NCBI GenBank assembly: GCA_017559445.1
Contig: JAFYSJ010000026.1
Location: 1,908 to 65,907 of the forward strand
Source of the DNA: Clostridia bacterium
GTDB taxonomy: Bacteria; Bacillota; Clostridia; RGIG7378
Reading direction: 5' to 3'
DNA: 64,000 nucleotides
In this document: one piece after another, positions 16,362 to 41,776 of the stretch
How the letters are laid out: each line of letters starts with the position of its first letter
How positions within the stretch are numbered: position 1 is the first letter of the stretch
Notes under the pieces: generated by a model
What the model saw: only the letters and a program-made list of their open reading frames with translations
Database searches by the model: none
Told to the model about the DNA's origin: nothing
Position numbers and translations under genes: made by a program

Positions 16362-17081
16362 TTATTTCGGAAGAACGTCTTTTATATATGCATTAACGCT
16401 ATGGTATACTTCTTCAAAGTTAGGTTTATTAACACCGCCGGCAAAACGGAATTTTTCGTAGGAATGCTTTAAATCTTCAGACCTGTGGAGAAAACCATTG
16501 AAATCTTCTAAGGCTCTTTCGCTATTTTTCAAAGTTTGAAGAACTTCGGTGACGTTAAATTCAAATACTTTTGAGATATAATATAAATCTATAACATCCT
16601 TAATACGACGAAATACCTTATCAGTGGAGATTGCCGCAACCTTATCTGCAATCATTTGAGAAGGAGATACACCACAAAAGCGAAGACCTTCTACTTCGTA
16701 GATTTTTGTAGGAGCTATCGGTCGGTTTACATCCACATCCATAGTGAAAAGAGTTTCCTCAGTTTCACGGTTAATTAGCTCGAGACCGGCAGAACGTTTT
16801 TCACCATACATTCTGTAAATCTTAACTTCAAGATTAACACCACTTTTGTCGATTGCTTTTTGCAAAGAATCTTCCATCTGTTTCGAAGTAGGGGGAGTAT
16901 CAGAGTTCCAGTTGGCATCAATATCTACGGTGTGGCGGGTATCATCATTATACCCCGCTTCAAGCAAACAAGCCTTTAAAACCATGGAGCCCTTAAAACT
17001 GATAGGGATTCCACTGTCATAGATGGCTTTCATAACCTTATACATTATTTTTTCTTCTACTGTTAAATTCAAAAGAATCAC
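16362..17081 (-). CDS. AbiEii/AbiGii-family nucleotidyltransferase toxin
   Basis: FKGSMVL...RHTVDID (GS/DxD pol-beta NTase motif), ADKV, RIKDVIDLY. Confidence 0.8.
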   Translation of the reverse strand: MILLNLTVEEKIMYKVMKAIYDSGIPISFKGSMVLKACLLEAGYNDDTRHTVDIDANWNSDTPPTSKQMEDSLQKAIDKSGVNLEVKIYRMYGEKRSAGLELINRETEETLFTMDVDVNRPIAPTKIYEVEGLRFCGVSPSQMIADKVAAISTDKVFRRIKDVIDLYYISKVFEFNVTEVLQTLKNSERALEDFNGFLHRSEDLKHSYEKFRFAGGVNKPNFEEVYHSVNAYIKDVLPK

Positions 17082-17082
17082 C

Positions 17083-17733
17083 TCAACTTCCGTAATATTC
17101 TATTGCTTCATTTGCTAACATTTCGAATCTATCTTGATATTCAGGAGAGATAAAAATACCGTCGAAACTATCACCATTTGCATAATAATAGCGGCTTAAG
17201 GCTTCGGTTATTCCTTGCATATCTAAAATAGCCTCGTTAGTAAAAGCGTCAAATACCGTTCGGTTGAAGTCGGTATAGAGCAACCCATTTCGACTCTTAA
17301 TATGGCGAGAACCAATGTGATTTCCCAATACAACCACACCATTAAACTGTGTAACACTGTCTTCGCCATAAACCCAAACAACGTATTCATCGTTACGACC
17401 ACCGAAACTACCTTGACACATAAGTGCTTCGTCTAAAGCGAATACTACCGATTCTCCTAAACAGTCTCTCACAGCCTTGAGCCAAGAGAGCGCGCCTACG
17501 TAATCACTACGCTTAGGAAGATTGCGCTTTTGTGGATCATACTTGGGTAGTGTTGTAGTTTTGTGGTTAATCAAGTCGTTCTTTATGCGTTGCTCCAATA
17601 AGGTAATAATATATTCAGGTGGAGTGCGCTTACCTGTTTCCCAATTTTGAACAGTACGAAAGGGAATGCTATATCGTGCAGCAAATTCACTTTGAGTAAC
17701 TCCTAGCTTTGTTCTCATTTCACGAATGTTCAT
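17083..17733 (-). CDS. XRE-HTH protein, probable cognate antitoxin
   Basis: N-terminal HTH (TQSEFA...TVQNWETG); C-terminal TDFNRTVFD resembles the AbiEi T.xERT.xD motif; ends 1 bp before the toxin start. Confidence 0.7.
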   Translation of the reverse strand: MNIREMRTKLGVTQSEFAARYSIPFRTVQNWETGKRTPPEYIITLLEQRIKNDLINHKTTTLPKYDPQKRNLPKRSDYVGALSWLKAVRDCLGESVVFALDEALMCQGSFGGRNDEYVVWVYGEDSVTQFNGVVVLGNHIGSRHIKSRNGLLYTDFNRTVFDAFTNEAILDMQGITEALSRYYYANGDSFDGIFISPEYQDRFEMLANEAIEYYGS

Positions 17734-17931: not shown

Positions 17932-19302
17932 TTATAGCTGATCTGCTAGAACTTTTCGCTTTTCCCATTTTCCACTTAAGAAGTAGATACAGCTTGGGAT
18001 GGCAGTTCCGTATGTGGCCAATGCGTATCCAAGAACGAATCCGTAGAAGCCCCAACCAAGCGCGATACCAAATAGCCAGCTAAGTCCAATTCTAAGCACT
18101 ACGCCGTCCAACATCGCAAGGACTAATCCTAAGTAGGCGTTACCAATACCCTGTATAAAGGCGAATGTGCCTCTCATAATGGTAAGGGCCGGCATCATCC
18201 ACAGGATAGCCTGAATAAATGTGTGTGACATCTCGTGAACCAGTGGGTCGTCAGAGAACATCATAAAGAGTTGCTTGCCCATTGTGAGGTAGATTGTCAT
18301 GCAGATAACTGTCAATGCGCCTGCGAAAATCCAGGAGCAGTAAACAGTTTTCTTAGCTCTGTCATTCTTGCCAGCGGCAATATTCTGGGCAACGATTGGC
18401 ATAGCAGCAAATTGGATGCCCTGAGAAATTTTGCTAAAAATATCGTCGATACGCACGCCAACTCCAAATGTGGCAGATGCAACAACGCTAATGCTGTTAA
18501 CAAGGGAGTTAACGAACATCATGGAAATGTTAATGCATCCAGCCTGAATAGCCATGGGCAATCCCTGATTAAAAATAAGGCGAACGTAGTTGAACTTAGG
18601 AATAAAGCTGGACAACTTAAAGTCAAAGCCAAATGCTTCTCTGTGCTTGAACAAGTAGTACAAGGAGAACAGGAAGGAAACACCCTGACCGATGATTGTA
18701 GCCCATGCAGCGCCTGCAACCTTCATATCCAAGAATCCTGTGAAGATAATGTCCAATACAAGGTTAACAACAGTTGCAATACCAATAAAGAGAAGAGGTC
18801 TCTTGGAATCTCCCATTCCACGAAGAACAGCAGAAACCATGTTGTATCCAGCAGTGAAGAAAAGTCCGCATCCGCAGATGATCAAATAATCCATGGACAT
18901 GGCATAGGACTCTGTAGGCATGTTCATTACATCCAAAATCCATGTTCTAGCGAAAAGGATTACGACGGAAAGTACAATTCCCATTGCAGAGATTAGGGAG
19001 AAAAGTGTTCCGATGATCTGGTTAAGCTCCTTGCGTTTTTGGGAACCAATAGCATGGGCAACGAGAATCTGTCCTGCGTTGGAAAAGCCAAGGCACATCA
19101 TGGTGGCAAAGTTTAGAATAAGACTGCTCTGGTAAACGGCAGAAAGTCCTGCTGTACCAACGAATTTGCCAACGATAACCATATCGATGGTGCTGTATAG
19201 AACCTGAAGTGCGTTTGCTGCCATGAATGGAATAGACATGGTTATGAGGAAACGCCATATGCTACCTTGTGTAAAATCTTTGGATAAGTGTTTTTTGGAC
19301 AT
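17932..19302 (-). CDS. MATE family efflux transporter
   Basis: DMVIVGKFVG, LRGMGDSKRPL, NLVLD, GAAWAT; about 12 TM segments. Confidence 0.92.
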   Translation of the reverse strand: MSKKHLSKDFTQGSIWRFLITMSIPFMAANALQVLYSTIDMVIVGKFVGTAGLSAVYQSSLILNFATMMCLGFSNAGQILVAHAIGSQKRKELNQIIGTLFSLISAMGIVLSVVILFARTWILDVMNMPTESYAMSMDYLIICGCGLFFTAGYNMVSAVLRGMGDSKRPLLFIGIATVVNLVLDIIFTGFLDMKVAGAAWATIIGQGVSFLFSLYYLFKHREAFGFDFKLSSFIPKFNYVRLIFNQGLPMAIQAGCINISMMFVNSLVNSISVVASATFGVGVRIDDIFSKISQGIQFAAMPIVAQNIAAGKNDRAKKTVYCSWIFAGALTVICMTIYLTMGKQLFMMFSDDPLVHEMSHTFIQAILWMMPALTIMRGTFAFIQGIGNAYLGLVLAMLDGVVLRIGLSWLFGIALGWGFYGFVLGYALATYGTAIPSCIYFLSGKWEKRKVLADQL

Positions 19303-19319
19303 TTATTATACCTCTGGGT

Positions 19320-19550
19320 TAGTGAGCCGCTGCGCTAGTAGCCGCCTTCGGCTAGTGAGCCGCTACGCTAGTAGTCGCACCGTTGGTGCTAGTGAGCCGC
19401 TACGCTAGTAGTCGCTGCGCTAGTGAACCGCAACTGCGTTGCTAGTAGGCCGCCTTCGGCTAGTGAGCCACGAGCAAAGCTCGTTAGTGAGCCGCTGCGC
19501 TAGTAGTCGCTGCGCTAGTGAGCCGCTACGCTAGTAGTCGCTGCGCTAGT
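19320..19550 (+). repeat. Modular linker/mini-hairpin array 1 (13 modules)
   Basis: TAGTGA(G/A)CC or TAGTAG(G)(T/C)C linkers alternate with hairpins GCTGCGC, GCTACGC, GCCTTCGGC, GCACCGTTGGTGC, GCAACTGCGTTGC, ACGAGCAAAGCTCGT. Confidence 0.95.
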
Positions 19551-19646
19551 TAATGCGCGTGCGCGCAGTATTATATTGCAGATTTTACGAAAAATCCAAC
19601 ATTTTGACATGTTTTTATGGCATTTCGTCGCGATATTTAATAAAAC

Positions 19647-22086: not shown

Positions 22087-22136
22087 ATGTTTTGTACAGA
22101 ATGATAAAAGAATAACTTAAACTGGCGCAACAGCGT

Positions 22137-22443
22137 GGTTCACTAGCGCAGCGGCCACTAGCACCAACGGTGCGGCTCACTAACGAGCTTTGCTCGTGGT
22201 TCACTAGCGTAGCGGCCACTAGCAACGCAGTTGCGGCTCACTAACGAGCTTTGCTCGTGGTTCACTAGCCGAAGGCGGCCTACTAGCGCGATAGCGCGGC
22301 CACTAGCACCAACGGTGCGGTTCACTAGGCGCAGCCGGTTCACTAGCGTAGCGACCACTAGCAACGCAGTTGCGGCTCACTAACGAGCTTTGCTCGTGGT
22401 TCACTAGCGCAGCGGCCACTAGCACCAACGGTGCGGCTCACTA
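22137..22443 (-). repeat. Modular linker/mini-hairpin array 2 (15 modules, reverse orientation)
   Basis: GG(C/T)TCACTA and GGCCACTA linkers (reverse complement of TAGTG..) with the same hairpin set as array 1 plus GGCGCAGCC and GCGCGATAGCGC. Confidence 0.95.
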
Positions 22444-38689: not shown

Positions 38690-39424
38690 ATGACCAAGGC
38701 TGTTCTAATTACAGGTGCATCTAGGGGAATAGGCGCTGCCATAGCAGAGACTTTTGCTAAGGCTGGATATGCTGTAGGTATCAACTACAATAGCAGTCAG
38801 GAGAGAGCAGAGCAGTTGGCAAGCAGGCTGACTGAGCAGTATGGTGTAAAGGCAACTATTCACAAGTGCAACGTGGCAAATCCTAAGGAAGTAGAGGAAA
38901 TGGTTCAGGACTTTGTTAAGAGTCATGGAAATATTTCCACATTGGTCTGCAATGCAGGTGTTGCACACATGGGACTTTTGTCAGATATGACAGATGGTGA
39001 ATGGGATAAGGTCTTGGGTACAAATCTTAGCGGAACTTTCTATGCTTGCAGACAGGTTATTCCGTACATGGTACGCCAGCAGGAAGGTAGCATAGTAACA
39101 GTGTCCTCCATGTGGGGACAGGAGGGAGCATCCTGTGAGGCAGCATATTCTGCAACAAAGGCAGGTATTATTGGTCTCACTAAGGCTTTGGCCAAGGAGT
39201 TGGGTCCCTCGAACATTAGAGTTAATTGCGTAGCTCCAGGCATGATCGCCACAGAGATGAATAGCTGTCTCTCTGAAGAAGATGTGCAGGCCATTGCAGA
39301 TGAGACACCACTTTGTCGCGTTGGCCAGCCTGAGGAGGTTGCAAAGGTAGTGTTGTTCTTGGCATCCCAGGAGGCTAGCTTTGTGACAGGCCAGGTTGTG
39401 GGCGTTAATGGAGGAATGTTTTAG
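38690..39424 (+). CDS. Short-chain dehydrogenase/reductase (FabG/YmfI-like)
   Basis: TGASRGIG, NAG, SSMWG...YSATK; its TAG stop is the first linker of array 3. Confidence 0.85.
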   Translation: MTKAVLITGASRGIGAAIAETFAKAGYAVGINYNSSQERAEQLASRLTEQYGVKATIHKCNVANPKEVEEMVQDFVKSHGNISTLVCNAGVAHMGLLSDMTDGEWDKVLGTNLSGTFYACRQVIPYMVRQQEGSIVTVSSMWGQEGASCEAAYSATKAGIIGLTKALAKELGPSNIRVNCVAPGMIATEMNSCLSEEDVQAIADETPLCRVGQPEEVAKVVLFLASQEASFVTGQVVGVNGGMF

Positions 39425-39522
39425 TGATCCGCACCGTTGGTGCTAGTGAACCACGAGCAAAGCTCGTTAGTGAGCCGCTGCGCTAGTAGGTCGCACCGTT
39501 GGTGCTAGTAGCCGCCTTCGGC
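39422..39522 (+). repeat. Modular linker/mini-hairpin array 3 (5 modules)
   Basis: Same linkers and hairpins as array 1; runs directly into TAGTGTT heptamers. Confidence 0.92.
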
Positions 39523-39730
39523 TAGTGTTTAGTGTTTGGTGTTGAGTGTTTAGTGAATGTCCCTTTGTTCCTATGGTCTTTTATATATGAACTTACTTCA
39601 TTCGTTAAACACTAATCACTAATAACTAAACACTGCAAACAAAGTTTGTGAACCGTGCCTCCCGCGCTTCGGAAGTAGCGGGCGACTTTTGATTACTTTT
39701 GGTCGTTCAAAAGTAATGAATAAACACTAA
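39523..39730 (+). repeat. ~210-bp structured repeat element, copy 1
   Basis: Heptamer (TAGTGTT)-bounded element with nested hairpins; aligns along its length with the reverse complement of 41542-41760. Confidence 0.9.
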
Positions 39731-39744
39731 TACGGAGGATTTAT

Positions 39745-40728
39745 ATGTCTTTACATATCATCAGACACGACATCACAAAAATGAAGATAGATGCCATTGT
39801 AAATGCGGCCAATTCCTCTTTGTTAGGTGGCGGTGGAGTAGATGGCGCCATTCATCACGCAGCAGGTCCTGGACTTCTCAAGGAGTGCATGACCTTAGGT
39901 GGTTGTGACACAGGTGACGCCAAGATTACAGGCGCATATAACTTGCCATGTAAGTACGTTATCCATACAGTTGGACCCGTTTGGCATGGCGGACAGTATG
40001 GCGAAAAGGAGCTTCTTAGATCCTGTTACATCAAATCCTTGGAGCTAGCCAAGGCAAATGGATGCGAATCTGTTGCATTTCCTTTGATTTCTTCTGGTGT
40101 GTACGGATACCCCAAGGACCAGGCACTTAGAGTTGCCATGGACGCAATATCAGACTTTTTGCTTACATGGGACATGACAGTTTACATGGTCATTTTTGAC
40201 AAGGCTGCAGTTACAATTAGTCAAAAGCTTTTCTCAGACATTAAGCAGTACATCGACCAGGCTTATGTTGAGGAGAGTGAGGTTAAGTATAGCCGCAACA
40301 GAATCCTTGCTGAAATGAGTACCAGTGCTCCAGTTCAGTACTGTAAGGCTATTAAACCTGAGAAATCTTTGGAAGACATAATTGGTGAAATAGACGAGAG
40401 CTTTTCTCAGATGCTCCTTCGTAAGATTGACGAGCTTGGCATGACAGATGCGGAGTGCTACAAAAAGGCTAACATTGACCGTAAGTTGTTTTCTAAGATT
40501 CGCGGAGATGTGAACTACAAGCCAAGCAAGCCCACAGCAATTGCCTTTGCAGTGGCATTGCAGCTTAACTTAAAAGAGACAGAGGAGTTGCTCAAAAAGG
40601 CAGGGTTTGCCCTTTCTCGTAGCAACAAGTTTGACCTTATTATTCGATACTTTATTTCCAATGGAAATTACAATATCCATGAGATTAACGAGGCATTGTT
40701 TGCCTTTGACCAGAACTTGCTTGGATAA
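39745..40728 (+). CDS. Macrodomain (O-acetyl-ADP-ribose deacetylase/YmdB-like) fused to an XRE-like HTH region
   Basis: DIT...DAIVNAAN...[29 protein letters not shown]; C-terminal [18 protein letters not shown]. Confidence 0.88.
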
Positions 40729-41467: not shown

Positions 41468-41541
41468 AGTGTTTCGTGCGTGAAATGTGCTGTTGCGCGT
41501 GATATACTTATAATAGAAGGTTGAATTTGTTAACGCAGTGA

Positions 41542-41760
41542 TTAGTGTATATTCATTACTTTGGAGCGACCCAAAGTAATCAAAGGTCGCCCGCTACTTC
41601 CGAATGCGCGGGAGGCACAGTTCGCAAAGCACAGCTTTGCAGTGGTTAGTGTTTAACGGATGAAGTAAGTTCCTATATAAAAGACCATAGGAACATAGGG
41701 ACATTCACTAAACACTGAACACCCAACACCCAACACTCAACACTCAACACCAAACACTAA
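41542..41760 (-). repeat. ~210-bp structured repeat element, copy 2 (inverted)
   Basis: Reverse complement of 39523-39730 with compensatory stem changes and a longer AACAC(T/C)N heptamer run. Confidence 0.9.
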
Positions 41761-41776
41761 TACGGAGGTCTTCGAG

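What the first reader, a model, noticed from the sequence alone, without database searches (positions are those of the whole stretch)
19320..19550. Combinatorial arrays of a fixed linker and a shared vocabulary of mini-hairpins
Seen: the array parses exactly into an 8-9 bp linker (TAGTGAGCC, TAGTGAACC, TAGTAG(T/C)C, TAGTAGGCC; long and short forms mostly alternate) followed by one perfect hairpin. Modules: A GC-TGC-GC, A' GC-TAC-GC, B GCC-TTC-GGC, C GCACC-GTT-GGTGC, D GCAAC-TGC-GTTGC, E ACGAGC-AAA-GCTCGT. Order here: A B A' C A' A D B E A A A' A. Identical modules recur at 22137-22443 and 39422-39522 in other orders. Slippage of a single tandem unit would not give different, perfectly conserved modules at distant loci. 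Known: REP/BIME elements are short hairpins plus a short conserved motif (GTAG) acted on by HUH RAYT transposases. Inference: this is a REP-like but distinct family in which linker+hairpin units are inserted or shuffled one at a time by an enzyme encoded elsewhere. It is the best candidate here for an undescribed system.
Basis: partly seen in the sequence, partly recalled or inferred. Interest (0 to 1): 0.85.

Follow-up and report, generated by a model that had tools for sequence, protein, structure and literature searches.

The report
Mosaic arrays of linker plus mini-hairpins
A small gut bacterium has filled the gaps between its genes with about a hundred arrays built from a fixed 8-9-letter linker and a small vocabulary of tiny DNA hairpins, a repeat family that resembles known bacterial "junk" repeats but is built differently and has no known enzyme behind it.

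Summary
It is one of 105 arrays (898 units, 18.3 kb, about 1.1% of a 1.68-Mb draft genome of an uncultured gut Clostridia). Of the 898 units, 765 are a linker plus exactly one perfect hairpin (shuffles: mean 103).

Unit order is unique at each locus and differs between strains at this locus. On the strand opposite TAGT the loops are mostly C(GNA)G or C(GNNA)G, the very stable "mini-hairpin DNA" motif (460 units against 22).

The exact dialect was found in no other genome searched. Congeners carry the precursors: xAGTGAx heptamer runs, about 10 linker+hairpin units with another linker, and small cassettes around a PF05635 (23S-rRNA-IVS/Avd-like) gene bracketed by inverted heptamers and hairpins. 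In 25 of 93 arrays the 3' end abuts a MITE-like relative of these cassettes; the 5' end does so in 2.

No RAYT, IS4/5, IS630, TnpB or reverse transcriptase gene was found.

Best reading: a species-specific burst of a REP/SDR-like miniature repeat that grows unit by unit at its own linker. The mechanism is inferred.

The parts
19320..19550 (+). Array 1: 13 units (linker TAGTGAGCC, TAGTGAACC, TAGTAGCC, TAGTAGTC or TAGTAGGCC plus a hairpin) and a closing TAGT. It lies between a promoter-like site and the ribosome-binding site of the MatE gene, so it is probably in the 5' UTR and transcribed as the ACTAG strand.
   Evidence: Empty orthologous site in congener G002.
22128..22443 (-). Array 2: about 16 units from the same vocabulary in another order. 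Together with array 1 it forms an inward-facing pair around two native genes.
39422..39522 (+). Array 3: 5 units (C E A C B). Its first TAG is the stop codon of the upstream gene. Its 3' end runs into the heptamer run of a MITE-like element.
39523..39745 (+). MITE-like element, copy 1. It has terminal inverted heptamer runs (TAGTGTT ... AACACTA), an X module and a 64-nt two-hairpin core (39653-39716).
41537..41765 (-). MITE-like element, copy 2 (84% identical to copy 1), with a heptamer run at 41706-41758.
17932..19302 (-). MatE-family transporter gene, whose upstream region holds array 1.
19582..19610 (-). Promoter-like site upstream of array 1 relative to the MatE gene. This is a consensus match only.

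Best explanation
The locus is one copy of a species-specific burst of a genus-wide miniature repeat system. The ancestral parts are seen in low copy in congeners. They are tandem xAGTGAx heptamers and short GC hairpins that form the inverted ends of small cassettes around a PF05635 (23S-rRNA-IVS/Avd-like four-helix-bundle) gene and of MITE-like derivatives of those cassettes. In this species the heptamer plus CC became a linker (TAGTGA[G/A]CC and shorter forms). The unit 'linker + following hairpin' has multiplied into about 900 copies in about 100 intergenic, head-to-tail mosaic arrays. I propose that units, or words of 2-4 units, are copied and put in at an existing linker, at or next to TAGT|GA(A). 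Because a new unit recreates that site on both sides, arrays grow, mix and stay in one orientation. The working form is probably single-stranded DNA of the ACTAG strand, where most hairpins are C(GNA)G or C(GNNA)G mini-hairpins. The activity that does this is unknown: a trans-acting protein not recognised here, or template switching at replication forks. Shown: the anatomy, the unit phase, the array ends, the polarity towards the elements, strain variability, loop strand asymmetry, and restriction to this species. Inferred: the insertion step, the single-stranded form, and selfish or neutral status.
For: Scale and specificity. A strict one-unit pattern gave 50 hits here and 0 in 40 relatives. 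The loose pattern gave 599 hits here, against 0, 1 and 0 in three congeners and at most 29 in any of 400 other genomes of the class. An exact unit pattern gave 0 hits in the genome-contig scan (the tool describes this collection as 185,579 species genomes), 0 in viral contigs, and only 3 chance singletons in high-GC metagenome contigs. Structure constraint. In families E, F and G the stems change at 0.004-0.013 per site and the loops at 0.10-0.29. Families differ from one another by compensated base pairs. Strand asymmetry. C(GNA)G 408 plus C(GNNA)G 52 on the complement strand, against 22 C(GNA)G on the TAGT strand. The motif and its stability are described in PMC13037366 (passages read). Unit phase. 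Array ends. The left end is a full linker; the right end is TAGTGAA followed by unrelated sequence (T72 A69 G65 T65 G50 A55 A44 of 76). 14 of 105 arrays start so that a gene's stop codon is the array's first TAG. Mosaic order. Link to the elements. 25 of 93 arrays have a MITE-like module within 60 nt of the 3' end, against 2 of 93 at the 5' end. The only PF05635 gene in this genome lies between inward-facing arrays. In G002 (1 of 1 copies) and G003 (2 of 3 copies) the gene is bracketed by inverted heptamers with the same polarity, and in G003 with hairpins and X-like modules as well. G002 has about 10 units with the linker AGTGAAGTT and TNC-loop hairpins. Insertion. Congener G002 has the same two genes with a roughly 125-nt spacer and no array, against 344 nt here, of which 231 nt are array. 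Turnover. At this locus, strains from other studies start with unit E, and one of them ends with B, A.
Against: No enzyme was found: PF01797, PF13358, PF01609 and PF00078 are absent and PF07282 is sub-threshold. PF05635 is not co-distributed with the burst. Orientation relative to the G-rich (leading) strand is only 57:35, weaker than expected for lagging-strand-specific single-strand transposition. Single isolated units are rare, so insertion of one unit into naive DNA has not been seen directly. The ends were found by a heuristic, and some are preceded by degenerate units. The strain evidence rests on 30-nt contig overhangs. The draft is 96% complete and lacks at least one 23-kb syntenic block, so a gene could be missing. 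Whole-array folding energy is not exceptional.
Confidence: 0.45

Rival explanations
1. Enzyme-free origin. Arrays arise and reshuffle by replication slippage, template switching at very stable nascent or template hairpins, and gene conversion between arrays through the shared linker. Quasi-palindrome templated correction keeps the stems perfect.
For: None of the tested transposase or reverse-transcriptase families was found. Stems are perfect and inter-family differences are compensated, which templated correction would produce without selection. Strain differences have their breakpoints in the linker. 8 of 70 arrays with 6 or more units show block periodicity of 30% or more, against a null of 0.55%. 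That single-strand exonucleases suppress such events in E. coli is recalled, not read here.
Against: About 100 dispersed loci must each have been seeded, which template switching rarely does. There is strict polarity towards the element ends (25 against 2). Congeners with the same parts show no burst. The one lead failed: xseA was not found here but is present in all 3 congeners, yet its whole 23-kb syntenic block is missing from this draft, so this is most likely an assembly gap. MutS is present in all 4 genomes.
Confidence: 0.27
2. True REP/BIME-type elements moved by a Y1 HUH transposase (RAYT or IS200/IS605-like) that lies on unassembled or unbinned DNA.
For: The units are short extragenic hairpins beside a conserved 5' motif. 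The TAGTAGG linker contains GTAG. The signature points to single-stranded hairpins. The draft is incomplete. REP/RAYT features are described in PMC3116915 (passages read).
Against: No PF01797 match here, while 6 of 14 control genomes matched. Units are head-to-tail, not inverted doublets. The hairpin sequence is highly diverse (81 perfect hairpin strings), whereas a RAYT goes with one REP type. Replication-strand bias is weak.
Confidence: 0.1
3. The arrays are selected host functions. They could be UTR structures that stabilise or terminate transcripts, translation stops, or binding platforms for a nucleic-acid-binding protein such as the PF05635 product. In that case their spread is secondary.
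For: Nearly all arrays are intergenic; 16 of 105 overlap a crude ORF call. Array 1 lies between a promoter-like site and the ribosome-binding site. Linkers carry TAG-TGA or TAG-TAG stops, and CTAG gives a stop on both strands. 6 of 85 arrays begin directly after a terminator-like hairpin and T-run.
Against: Arrays occur in both orientations relative to flanking genes (++ 42, -- 20, +- 18, -+ 13). The order is hypervariable between strains. Congeners with the same genes lack them. There is no excess folding energy. No Rfam family matches.
Confidence: 0.1
4. Assembly or sequencing artefact.
For: Many contigs end in arrays. Short-read assemblers can misorder repeats.
Against: Unique flanks run into arrays in contigs of independent runs from three studies. 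Arrays sit inside long contigs between ordinary genes. The vocabulary is consistent genome-wide.
Confidence: 0.02

Closest known systems
REP / BIME / REPIN elements with RAYT transposases (Enterobacteria, Pseudomonas)
   Same: High-copy, extragenic short hairpins beside a short conserved motif, clustered in composite arrays, and probably acting as single-stranded hairpins (PMC3116915, passages read).
   Different: Units here are 15-24 nt, all head-to-tail, with one constant linker and many different perfect hairpins. There are no inverted doublets and no RAYT gene.
Small dispersed repeats (SDR) and heptameric STRR repeats of Nostocaceae (Elhai et al. 2008, Genome Res 18:1484)
   Same: As I recall the abstract: 21-27-nt elements sharing a hairpin, embedded in tandem heptamers or mini-transposons, inserted into copies of themselves, lineage-restricted, with no known enzyme. 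All of this matches what is seen here.
   Different: A different phylum (Clostridia), different sequences, and a much larger combinatorial hairpin vocabulary in long mosaic arrays. The paper is not held. I saw only one-line mentions of it in PMC5861425 and PMC3116915, so the comparison rests on recall.
23S rRNA intervening-sequence (IVS) elements / PF05635 Avd-like four-helix-bundle genes
   Same: A small PF05635 gene enclosed by inverted repeats. PF05635 is described as Avd-like and of unknown function outside DGRs in PMC10053308 (passages read).
   Different: Here the gene is not in rRNA and no reverse transcriptase is present. The inverted ends are tandem heptamers plus hairpins. I did not find this described: one search returned only two DGR papers.
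IS200/IS605 single-strand 'peel and paste' transposition
   Same: It offers a mechanistic model: a hairpin plus a short adjacent guide, and insertion next to a 4-5-nt target that the element end can recreate. The details are recalled, apart from the outline given in PMC3116915.
   Different: No TnpA here, a weak replication-strand bias, and an element of only about 20 nt.
Mini-hairpin DNA d(GCGNAGC) / d(GCGNNAGC)
   Same: Modules A, A+, B, B+, D and G carry exactly these loops with a C:G closing pair on the ACTAG strand. Reported Tm values are about 70-76 C (PMC13037366).
   Different: That literature describes single occurrences at phage and plasmid origins, not genome-wide arrays.
CRISPR arrays
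   Same: A regular alternation of constant and variable short segments.
   Different: The constant part is 8-9 nt and not palindromic. The variable part is a palindrome drawn from a small shared vocabulary, not unique spacers. There are about 100 loci.

Membership tests
REP/REPIN-RAYT | A single-copy RAYT (Y1_Tnp, PF01797) gene in the genome, flanked by its REPs | tested here: not met
   0 matches in G000, while 6 of 14 control genomes matched. The draft is 96% complete.
REP/REPIN-RAYT | REPs arranged as inverted doublets (REPINs) or in alternating orientation (BIMEs) | tested here: not met
   All units within an array share one orientation.
REP/REPIN-RAYT | High-copy, extragenic, palindromic repeat | tested here: met
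   898 units. 16 of 105 arrays overlap a crude ORF call. 765 of 898 units hold a perfect hairpin.
SDR/STRR of Nostocaceae (features recalled) | About 20-nt hairpin elements embedded in tandem heptamers or mini-transposons | tested here: met
   Arrays end in TAGTGAA. Heptamer runs flank arrays and MITE-like elements. 25 of 93 arrays abut a MITE-like module.
SDR/STRR of Nostocaceae (features recalled) | Sequence similarity to SDR1-8, and occurrence in Nostocaceae | not testable with these tools
   The paper is not held, so there were no SDR sequences to compare. The host here is a Clostridia MAG.
CRISPR | Direct repeats of 23-55 nt separated by unique spacers | tested here: not met
   The constant part is 8-9 nt. 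The variable parts come from about 12 recurrent families.
MITE (DDE transposon derivative) | Terminal inverted repeats and a target-site duplication on each unit, with a cognate DDE transposase | tested here: not met
   The unit is asymmetric, with the linker on one side only. No DDE_3 or DDE_Tnp_1 was found. rve and other DDE families were not searched.
IS200/IS605-type single-strand elements | TnpA (Y1) and/or TnpB, with a strong insertion bias to one replication strand | tested here: not met
   Orientation is 57:35 relative to the G-rich strand.
Locus-specific VNTR / slippage repeat | Tandem copies of one unit, homogeneous within a locus | tested here: not met
   5 adjacent identical units in 793 junctions. 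Only 8 of 70 arrays show any block periodicity.
Rfam RNA families | A match to a curated covariance model | tested here: not met
   0 matches at gathering threshold in the window. Nothing relevant at E up to 1 over the three arrays and the MITE-like copies.
DGR (Avd + reverse transcriptase) | A reverse transcriptase beside the PF05635/Avd gene | tested here: not met
   No RVT_1 match in G000.

The most novel reading that the evidence does not exclude
PF05635 (23S-rRNA-IVS / Avd-like) genes are the core of a widespread, undescribed class of tiny mobile cassettes. Their inverted ends are tandem heptamers plus mini-hairpins, and the four-helix-bundle protein takes part in copying those end repeats. 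The arrays here would be a runaway of that end-copying activity. The same logic would then explain the long-unexplained heptamer (STRR) and SDR repeats of cyanobacteria and the origin of rRNA intervening sequences. Evidence so far: 16 of 34 PF05635 loci from Clostridia genomes have a tandem repeat of 6-11-nt period within 300 nt of the gene (29 per 20.0 kb near the gene, against 12 per 72.2 kb further away). 9 of 33 loci have inverted flank matches above the null maximum. Polarity is the same in three species of this genus.
Probability: 0.12. Interest if true: 0.85.

Novelty: new variant of a known kind. Interest (0 to 1): 0.68.

Why it matters
Very small dispersed repeats are the least understood kind of bacterial repetitive DNA. 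For REPs an enzyme (RAYT) is known. For the roughly 20-nt SDR-type elements none is. This genome offers an extreme and clean case: about 900 units, a readable grammar (linker, hairpin, polarity, ends), precursors still visible in sister species, strain-level turnover, and a physical link to the enigmatic PF05635/IVS protein cassettes. That makes testable the question of how such tiny elements multiply: look for unit gains in long reads, and test whether the PF05635 protein binds heptamer and hairpin DNA. There is also a practical side. These arrays break short-read assemblies (many contigs end in them) and hold 24% of all CTAG sites in the genome.

Tried and rejected
Rejected readings.
- CRISPR: the constant part is too short and the variable parts are a shared vocabulary.
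- An RNA family: Rfam gave nothing.
- An exceptionally stable global fold: z +0.14 and +1.49.
- Arrays added at transcript 3' ends: only 6 of 85 start right after a terminator-like hairpin and T-run.
- Arrays moved as large blocks: the best shared run between loci is 5-7 units, and some of those are probably one array split over contig ends.
- Arrays as Chi-like sites: I considered this by eye only (AGCGG lies on the ACTAG strand). I dropped it because the orientation relative to the G-rich strand is the wrong way round.

Gene and enzyme leads that failed.
- Multi-copy genes as a source of a transposase: the repeated segments longer than 700 bp are surface-protein paralogs and other ordinary genes.
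- Genes between close array pairs: ordinary functions apart from the PF05635 gene.
- PF05635 as the cause of the burst: not co-distributed.
- Loss of exonuclease VII as the cause: xseA is not found here but is present in all 3 congeners. However, all 24 ORFs of the 23-kb syntenic contig of G002 lack an ortholog in this draft. This is most likely an assembly gap and is uninformative.
- MutS is present in all 4 genomes and SbcD_C in none.

Literature.
- The six linker strings occur in no relevant held paper (48 hits, all primers and the like among the 15 listed).
- Searches found no description of such arrays.
- One search found nothing that links PF05635 to heptamers.
- Supplementary files were not consulted.

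Runs.
- No RNA holder was listed, so expression is untested.
- Run X11 showed no rise in depth over the arrays, and run X8 only a weak one. I draw no conclusion from either.

Control note. In one search the control is uninformative, because the pattern gave identical control and forward counts (24/25 and 4/5).

Full report
OBSERVATION.

The stretch 19320-19550 reads, without remainder, as 13 units of an 8-9-nt linker beginning TAGT plus one perfect mini-hairpin, closed by a final TAGT. Tandem Repeats Finder sees only imperfect periods of 15, 31 and 37, which fits a mosaic rather than one repeated unit. The same modules recur at 22128-22443 on the other strand and at 39422-39522 in other orders.

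Array 1 is intergenic. It lies between the start of a MatE transporter gene (17932-19302, minus strand) and the stop of the next gene. It is downstream of a promoter-like site at 19610-19582, so it probably sits in the 5' UTR. That placement is inferred.

GENOME-WIDE PICTURE.

The window belongs to a 1.68-Mb, 40-contig draft (96% complete) with about 43% G+C. Relatives of its pyruvate kinase are uncultured Clostridia/Eubacteriales MAGs, at 77% identity or less. The runs that hold the stretch are recorded as gut metagenomes, those of one study as bovine gut.

A parse on TAGT spacing finds 105 arrays of 2-21 units. Together they hold 898 units and 18.3 kb.

- Hairpin content. 765 of 898 units are a linker of 6-10 nt plus exactly one perfect hairpin; shuffles give a mean of 103 and a maximum of 130. 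With stems of 3 bp or more the count is 546 against a shuffle mean of 37.
- Linkers. There are 68 linker strings. The most common are TAGTGAGCC (203), TAGTGAACC (155), TAGTAGGCC (89) and TAGTGGCC (34).
- Hairpins. There are 81 hairpin strings in about a dozen families.
- Non-hairpin modules. Two modules are not hairpins: GCTCGTTTCACTCGC (about 40 units, almost only after TAGTAT linkers) and GCTCATTGCATTCGC (about 20 units).
- Location. The longer hairpins hardly occur outside arrays, and solo units are rare. Arrays are almost all intergenic.
- Stop codons. In 14 of 105 arrays the first TAG of the array serves as the stop codon of the upstream gene.
- CTAG. CTAG is under-represented outside arrays (observed/expected 0.44), and 24% of all CTAG sites lie in arrays.

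GRAMMAR.

- Unit phase. The linker shares more information with the hairpin that follows it (0.98 bits, null 0.37) than with the one before it (0.68, null 0.36). The copied unit is therefore linker plus following hairpin, although neighbouring hairpins are also correlated (0.42, null 0.14).
- Linker alternation. TAGTAG, TAGTAA and TAGTAT linkers are usually followed by TAGTGA (222 of 287). TAGTGA often follows itself (163 of 432).
- Neighbour avoidance. The same long hairpin almost never neighbours itself: C>C 0, D>D 1, E>E 0, F>F 0, G>G 0, B>B 3. About 42 would be expected from the family frequencies. That expectation is my own estimate from the counts, not a tool output.
- Sharing between loci. 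Different loci share at most 5-7 units in order, and usually 4 or fewer.
- Periodicity. Exact block periodicity of 30% or more occurs in 8 of 70 arrays with 6 or more units, against a null of 0.55%.
- Stems and loops. Stems are far more constant than loops (0.004-0.013 against 0.10-0.29 changes per site in families E, F and G). Families differ from each other by compensated pairs: for example D and C differ by one A:T to C:G swap, and F and E by two swaps.

STRAND.

On the TAGT strand the loops are mostly TGC, TTC, TAC, or T-N-N-C. On the complement they are therefore GCA, GAA, GTA, or G-N-N-A, closed by C:G. The counts are 408 C(GNA)G plus 52 C(GNNA)G on the complement, against 22 C(GNA)G on the TAGT strand. 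A further 47 B units were parsed in an alternative register.

These loops are the 'mini-hairpin DNA' motifs d(GCGNAGC) and d(GCGNNAGC). [quoted passage not shown] This may explain why whole-array folding with standard parameters is unremarkable. It also points to single-stranded DNA of the ACTAG strand as the relevant form; this is inference.

Orientation is not strict. The TAGT strand equals the G-rich strand in 57 of 92 arrays, while genes follow the G-rich strand in 1084 of 1388 cases. Relative to flanking genes the contexts are ++ 42, -- 20, +- 18 and -+ 13.

ENDS AND NEIGHBOURS.

Arrays begin with a full linker and end, after the last hairpin, with TAGTGAA followed by unrelated sequence. 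An array can thus be read as a heptamer run with 'CC + hairpin' inserted between the heptamers.

Pure heptamer runs (TAGTGTT, TAGTGAT, TAGTGGT) do flank arrays. They also form the inverted ends of a roughly 200-nt MITE-like element with about 25 full or partial copies. The window holds copies at 39523-39745 and 41537-41765. 25 of 93 arrays have such a module within 60 nt of their 3' end, and only 2 at their 5' end. Arrays therefore read towards the element.

Among neighbouring arrays 4 kb or less apart, inward-facing pairs number 9 and outward-facing pairs 2. Arrays 1 and 2 form one inward-facing pair. The two genes between them are native, because congener G002 has the same gene next to its MatE ortholog without any array.

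DISTRIBUTION.

- A strict one-unit pattern gives 50 hits here and none in 3 same-genus and 37 same-class genomes.
- A loose two-linker pattern gives 599 hits here (control 8). It gives 0, 1 and 0 in the congeners and at most 29 in any of 400 other genomes of the class.
- An exact-unit IUPAC pattern gives 0 hits in viral contigs and 0 in the genome-contig scan, a collection the tool describes as 185,579 species genomes. It gives 3 single chance hits in high-GC metagenome contigs. The tool may leave out records of the window's own genome.

The congeners are not empty, however.

- The 64-nt two-hairpin core of the MITE-like element occurs in G001 (4 copies) and G002 (7 copies) at 86-88% identity, with compensated stem changes.
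- G002 and G003 carry many xAGTGAx heptamer runs.
- G002 has about 10 linker+hairpin units in another dialect. Its linker is AGTGAAGTT. Its hairpins include GTCC-TGC-GGAC, GTCC-TAC-GGAC and TTTGC-TAAC-GCAAA, again with T..C loops. It also has a non-hairpin module like the one here.

The burst is therefore species-specific, but the system is genus-wide.

STRAINS.

Fourteen listed runs from four studies hold part of the stretch. I laid contigs of four runs. In X1 and X4 the word depth over the arrays is 227-533, against 5-10 in the flanks, which fits a multi-copy repeat.

In X4 (about 98% identical) and X8 (about 96% identical), the contig that carries the MatE flank continues from 19319 into sequence that matches 19461 onward, with 9 shared letters (the linker). 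The first unit there is therefore E, not A. In X4 the contig that carries the other flank shows the last two units as B, A joined by a TAGTGGTC linker, not A', A. The skipped lengths (141 and 71 nt) are whole numbers of units.

Unit order at one locus thus differs between close strains. This rests on 30-nt overhangs of k-mer contigs.

ENZYMES.

In this draft I found no match to Y1_Tnp/RAYT, DDE_3, DDE_Tnp_1 or RVT_1. The TnpB zinc-ribbon domain scores only below threshold inside long ordinary ORFs. Repeated segments longer than 700 bp encode surface-protein paralogs and other ordinary genes, not transposases.

Among the genes between close array pairs, one stands out: a 122-aa PF05635 protein (23S rRNA intervening-sequence protein, E 2e-26) at G000:C24:12782-13150. 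It lies between inward-facing arrays, and the downstream array starts at its stop codon. PF05635 is Avd-like and has no known function outside DGRs (PMC10053308, passages read).

The gene is single-copy here, and it is also present in the array-poor congeners (1, 1 and 3 copies). In G002 (1 of 1 copies) and G003 (2 of 3 copies) it is bracketed by inverted heptamer runs with the same polarity as here. In G003 the full layout is hairpin, heptamers, X-like module, gene, inverted X-like module, heptamers, hairpin.

Across a sample of the class, 37 of 120 genomes have the gene. Of 34 loci examined, 16 have a tandem repeat of 6-11-nt period within 300 nt of the gene: 29 arrays in 20.0 kb near the gene, against 12 in 72.2 kb further away. 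9 of 33 loci have inverted flank matches of 31.5 bits or more, where the null maximum is 27.6.

The MITE-like elements therefore look like gene-less relatives of these cassettes. The arrays look like an overgrowth of their terminal repeat zone.

MECHANISM.

What is shown:
- the grammar of the units;
- the ends of the arrays;
- the polarity towards the elements;
- the single-strand loop signature;
- the empty site in a sister species;
- the turnover between strains.

What I infer is the following. A unit, or a short word of units, is copied and put in at or next to TAGT|GA(A). Because the unit starts with GA(G/A)CC and is followed by TAGT, it recreates that site on both sides. This gives same-orientation arrays that mix freely.

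Whether a dedicated protein does this (my preference, because about 100 loci had to be seeded and the polarity is strict) or replication template switching does it cannot be decided here.

The one genetic lead for the enzyme-free route failed. xseA was not found here, but the whole 23-kb syntenic block that carries it is missing from the draft.

COMPARISON AND NOVELTY.

The family works like REP/BIME elements and, more closely, like the SDR and heptamer repeats of Nostocaceae (recalled; the paper is not held). It fails the tests for membership of REP/REPIN-RAYT: no RAYT and no inverted doublets. It also fails those for CRISPR, DDE-type MITEs and simple VNTRs.

I found no description of it. The searches were the linker strings, repeat-family terms and PF05635 terms. 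Supplementary files were not seen.

I file it as a new variant of a known kind, the miniature extragenic hairpin repeats. Its unusual points are a combinatorial grammar, a mini-hairpin-DNA signature, and a link to PF05635 cassettes, which is new as far as my searches show.

Noticed in passing
window 39523-39745 (+) and 41537-41765 (-): A roughly 200-nt MITE-like element with inverted heptamer ends, present in about 25 full or partial copies in the genome. Its 64-nt two-hairpin core (39653-39716) is conserved in congeners G001 and G002 at 86-88% identity with compensated stem changes. It could be a small structured RNA or a protein-binding site. No Rfam family matches it.
   Followed up: partly
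G000:C24:12782-13150 (outside the window; locus L031), and loci L032-L036 and L130-L157: PF05635 (23S rRNA IVS / Avd-like) genes in Clostridia are often bracketed by short-period tandem repeats, mostly heptamers (16 of 34 loci), and by inverted repeats (9 of 33 loci). The heptamer sequence differs between genomes: TAATGAA, AGTAACC, CGTAACC, TAGTGAA and AAGTGAA are examples.
   Followed up: partly
locus L120 (G003:C47:1-420) and L035:900-1250: Congener G003 has tandem 62-64-nt repeats, each made of a heptamer run plus an X-like module, upstream of a PF05635 gene.
   Followed up: no
window 16362-17733 (-): An AbiEii-type nucleotidyltransferase toxin gene next to an HTH_3 gene. This looks like a type IV toxin-antitoxin pair, just downstream of the MatE gene.
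   Followed up: no
window 19554-19567: A GC palindrome (TGCGCGTGCGCGCA) lies directly between the promoter-like region and the 3' end of array 1. The scan counts it as terminator-like on the + strand.
   Followed up: no
locus L031:695-790 and 1216-1310 (G000:C24): Two copies of a roughly 95-nt segment that ends in a terminator-like hairpin and T-run lie between the upstream array and the PF05635 gene. This may be a leader or small RNA. It was not searched.
   Followed up: no
whole draft G000, compared with G002:C69 (23 kb) and G001:C12: A syntenic block present in two congeners has no ortholog in this draft (24 ORFs tested). By the family match it holds xseA. By their position and size I took other ORFs to be xseB, an ispA-like gene and dxs; these were not annotated with a tool. 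The block is probably a missing contig. The draft should not be used to claim gene loss.
   Followed up: yes
contig ends of G000 (for example C34:1-374 and C34:67559-67703): Most contig ends share overlaps of about 141-153 nt with other contig ends, and many contigs stop inside arrays. The repeat family is a main cause of fragmentation in this assembly.
   Followed up: no
G000:C3:426-5854, C12:17871-23448, C25:3875-9488 and C37:6321-12812: Families of large paralogous surface proteins with Pro/Thr-rich linkers, leucine-rich-repeat-like regions and C-terminal membrane anchors make up the other repeated DNA of the genome.
   Followed up: no
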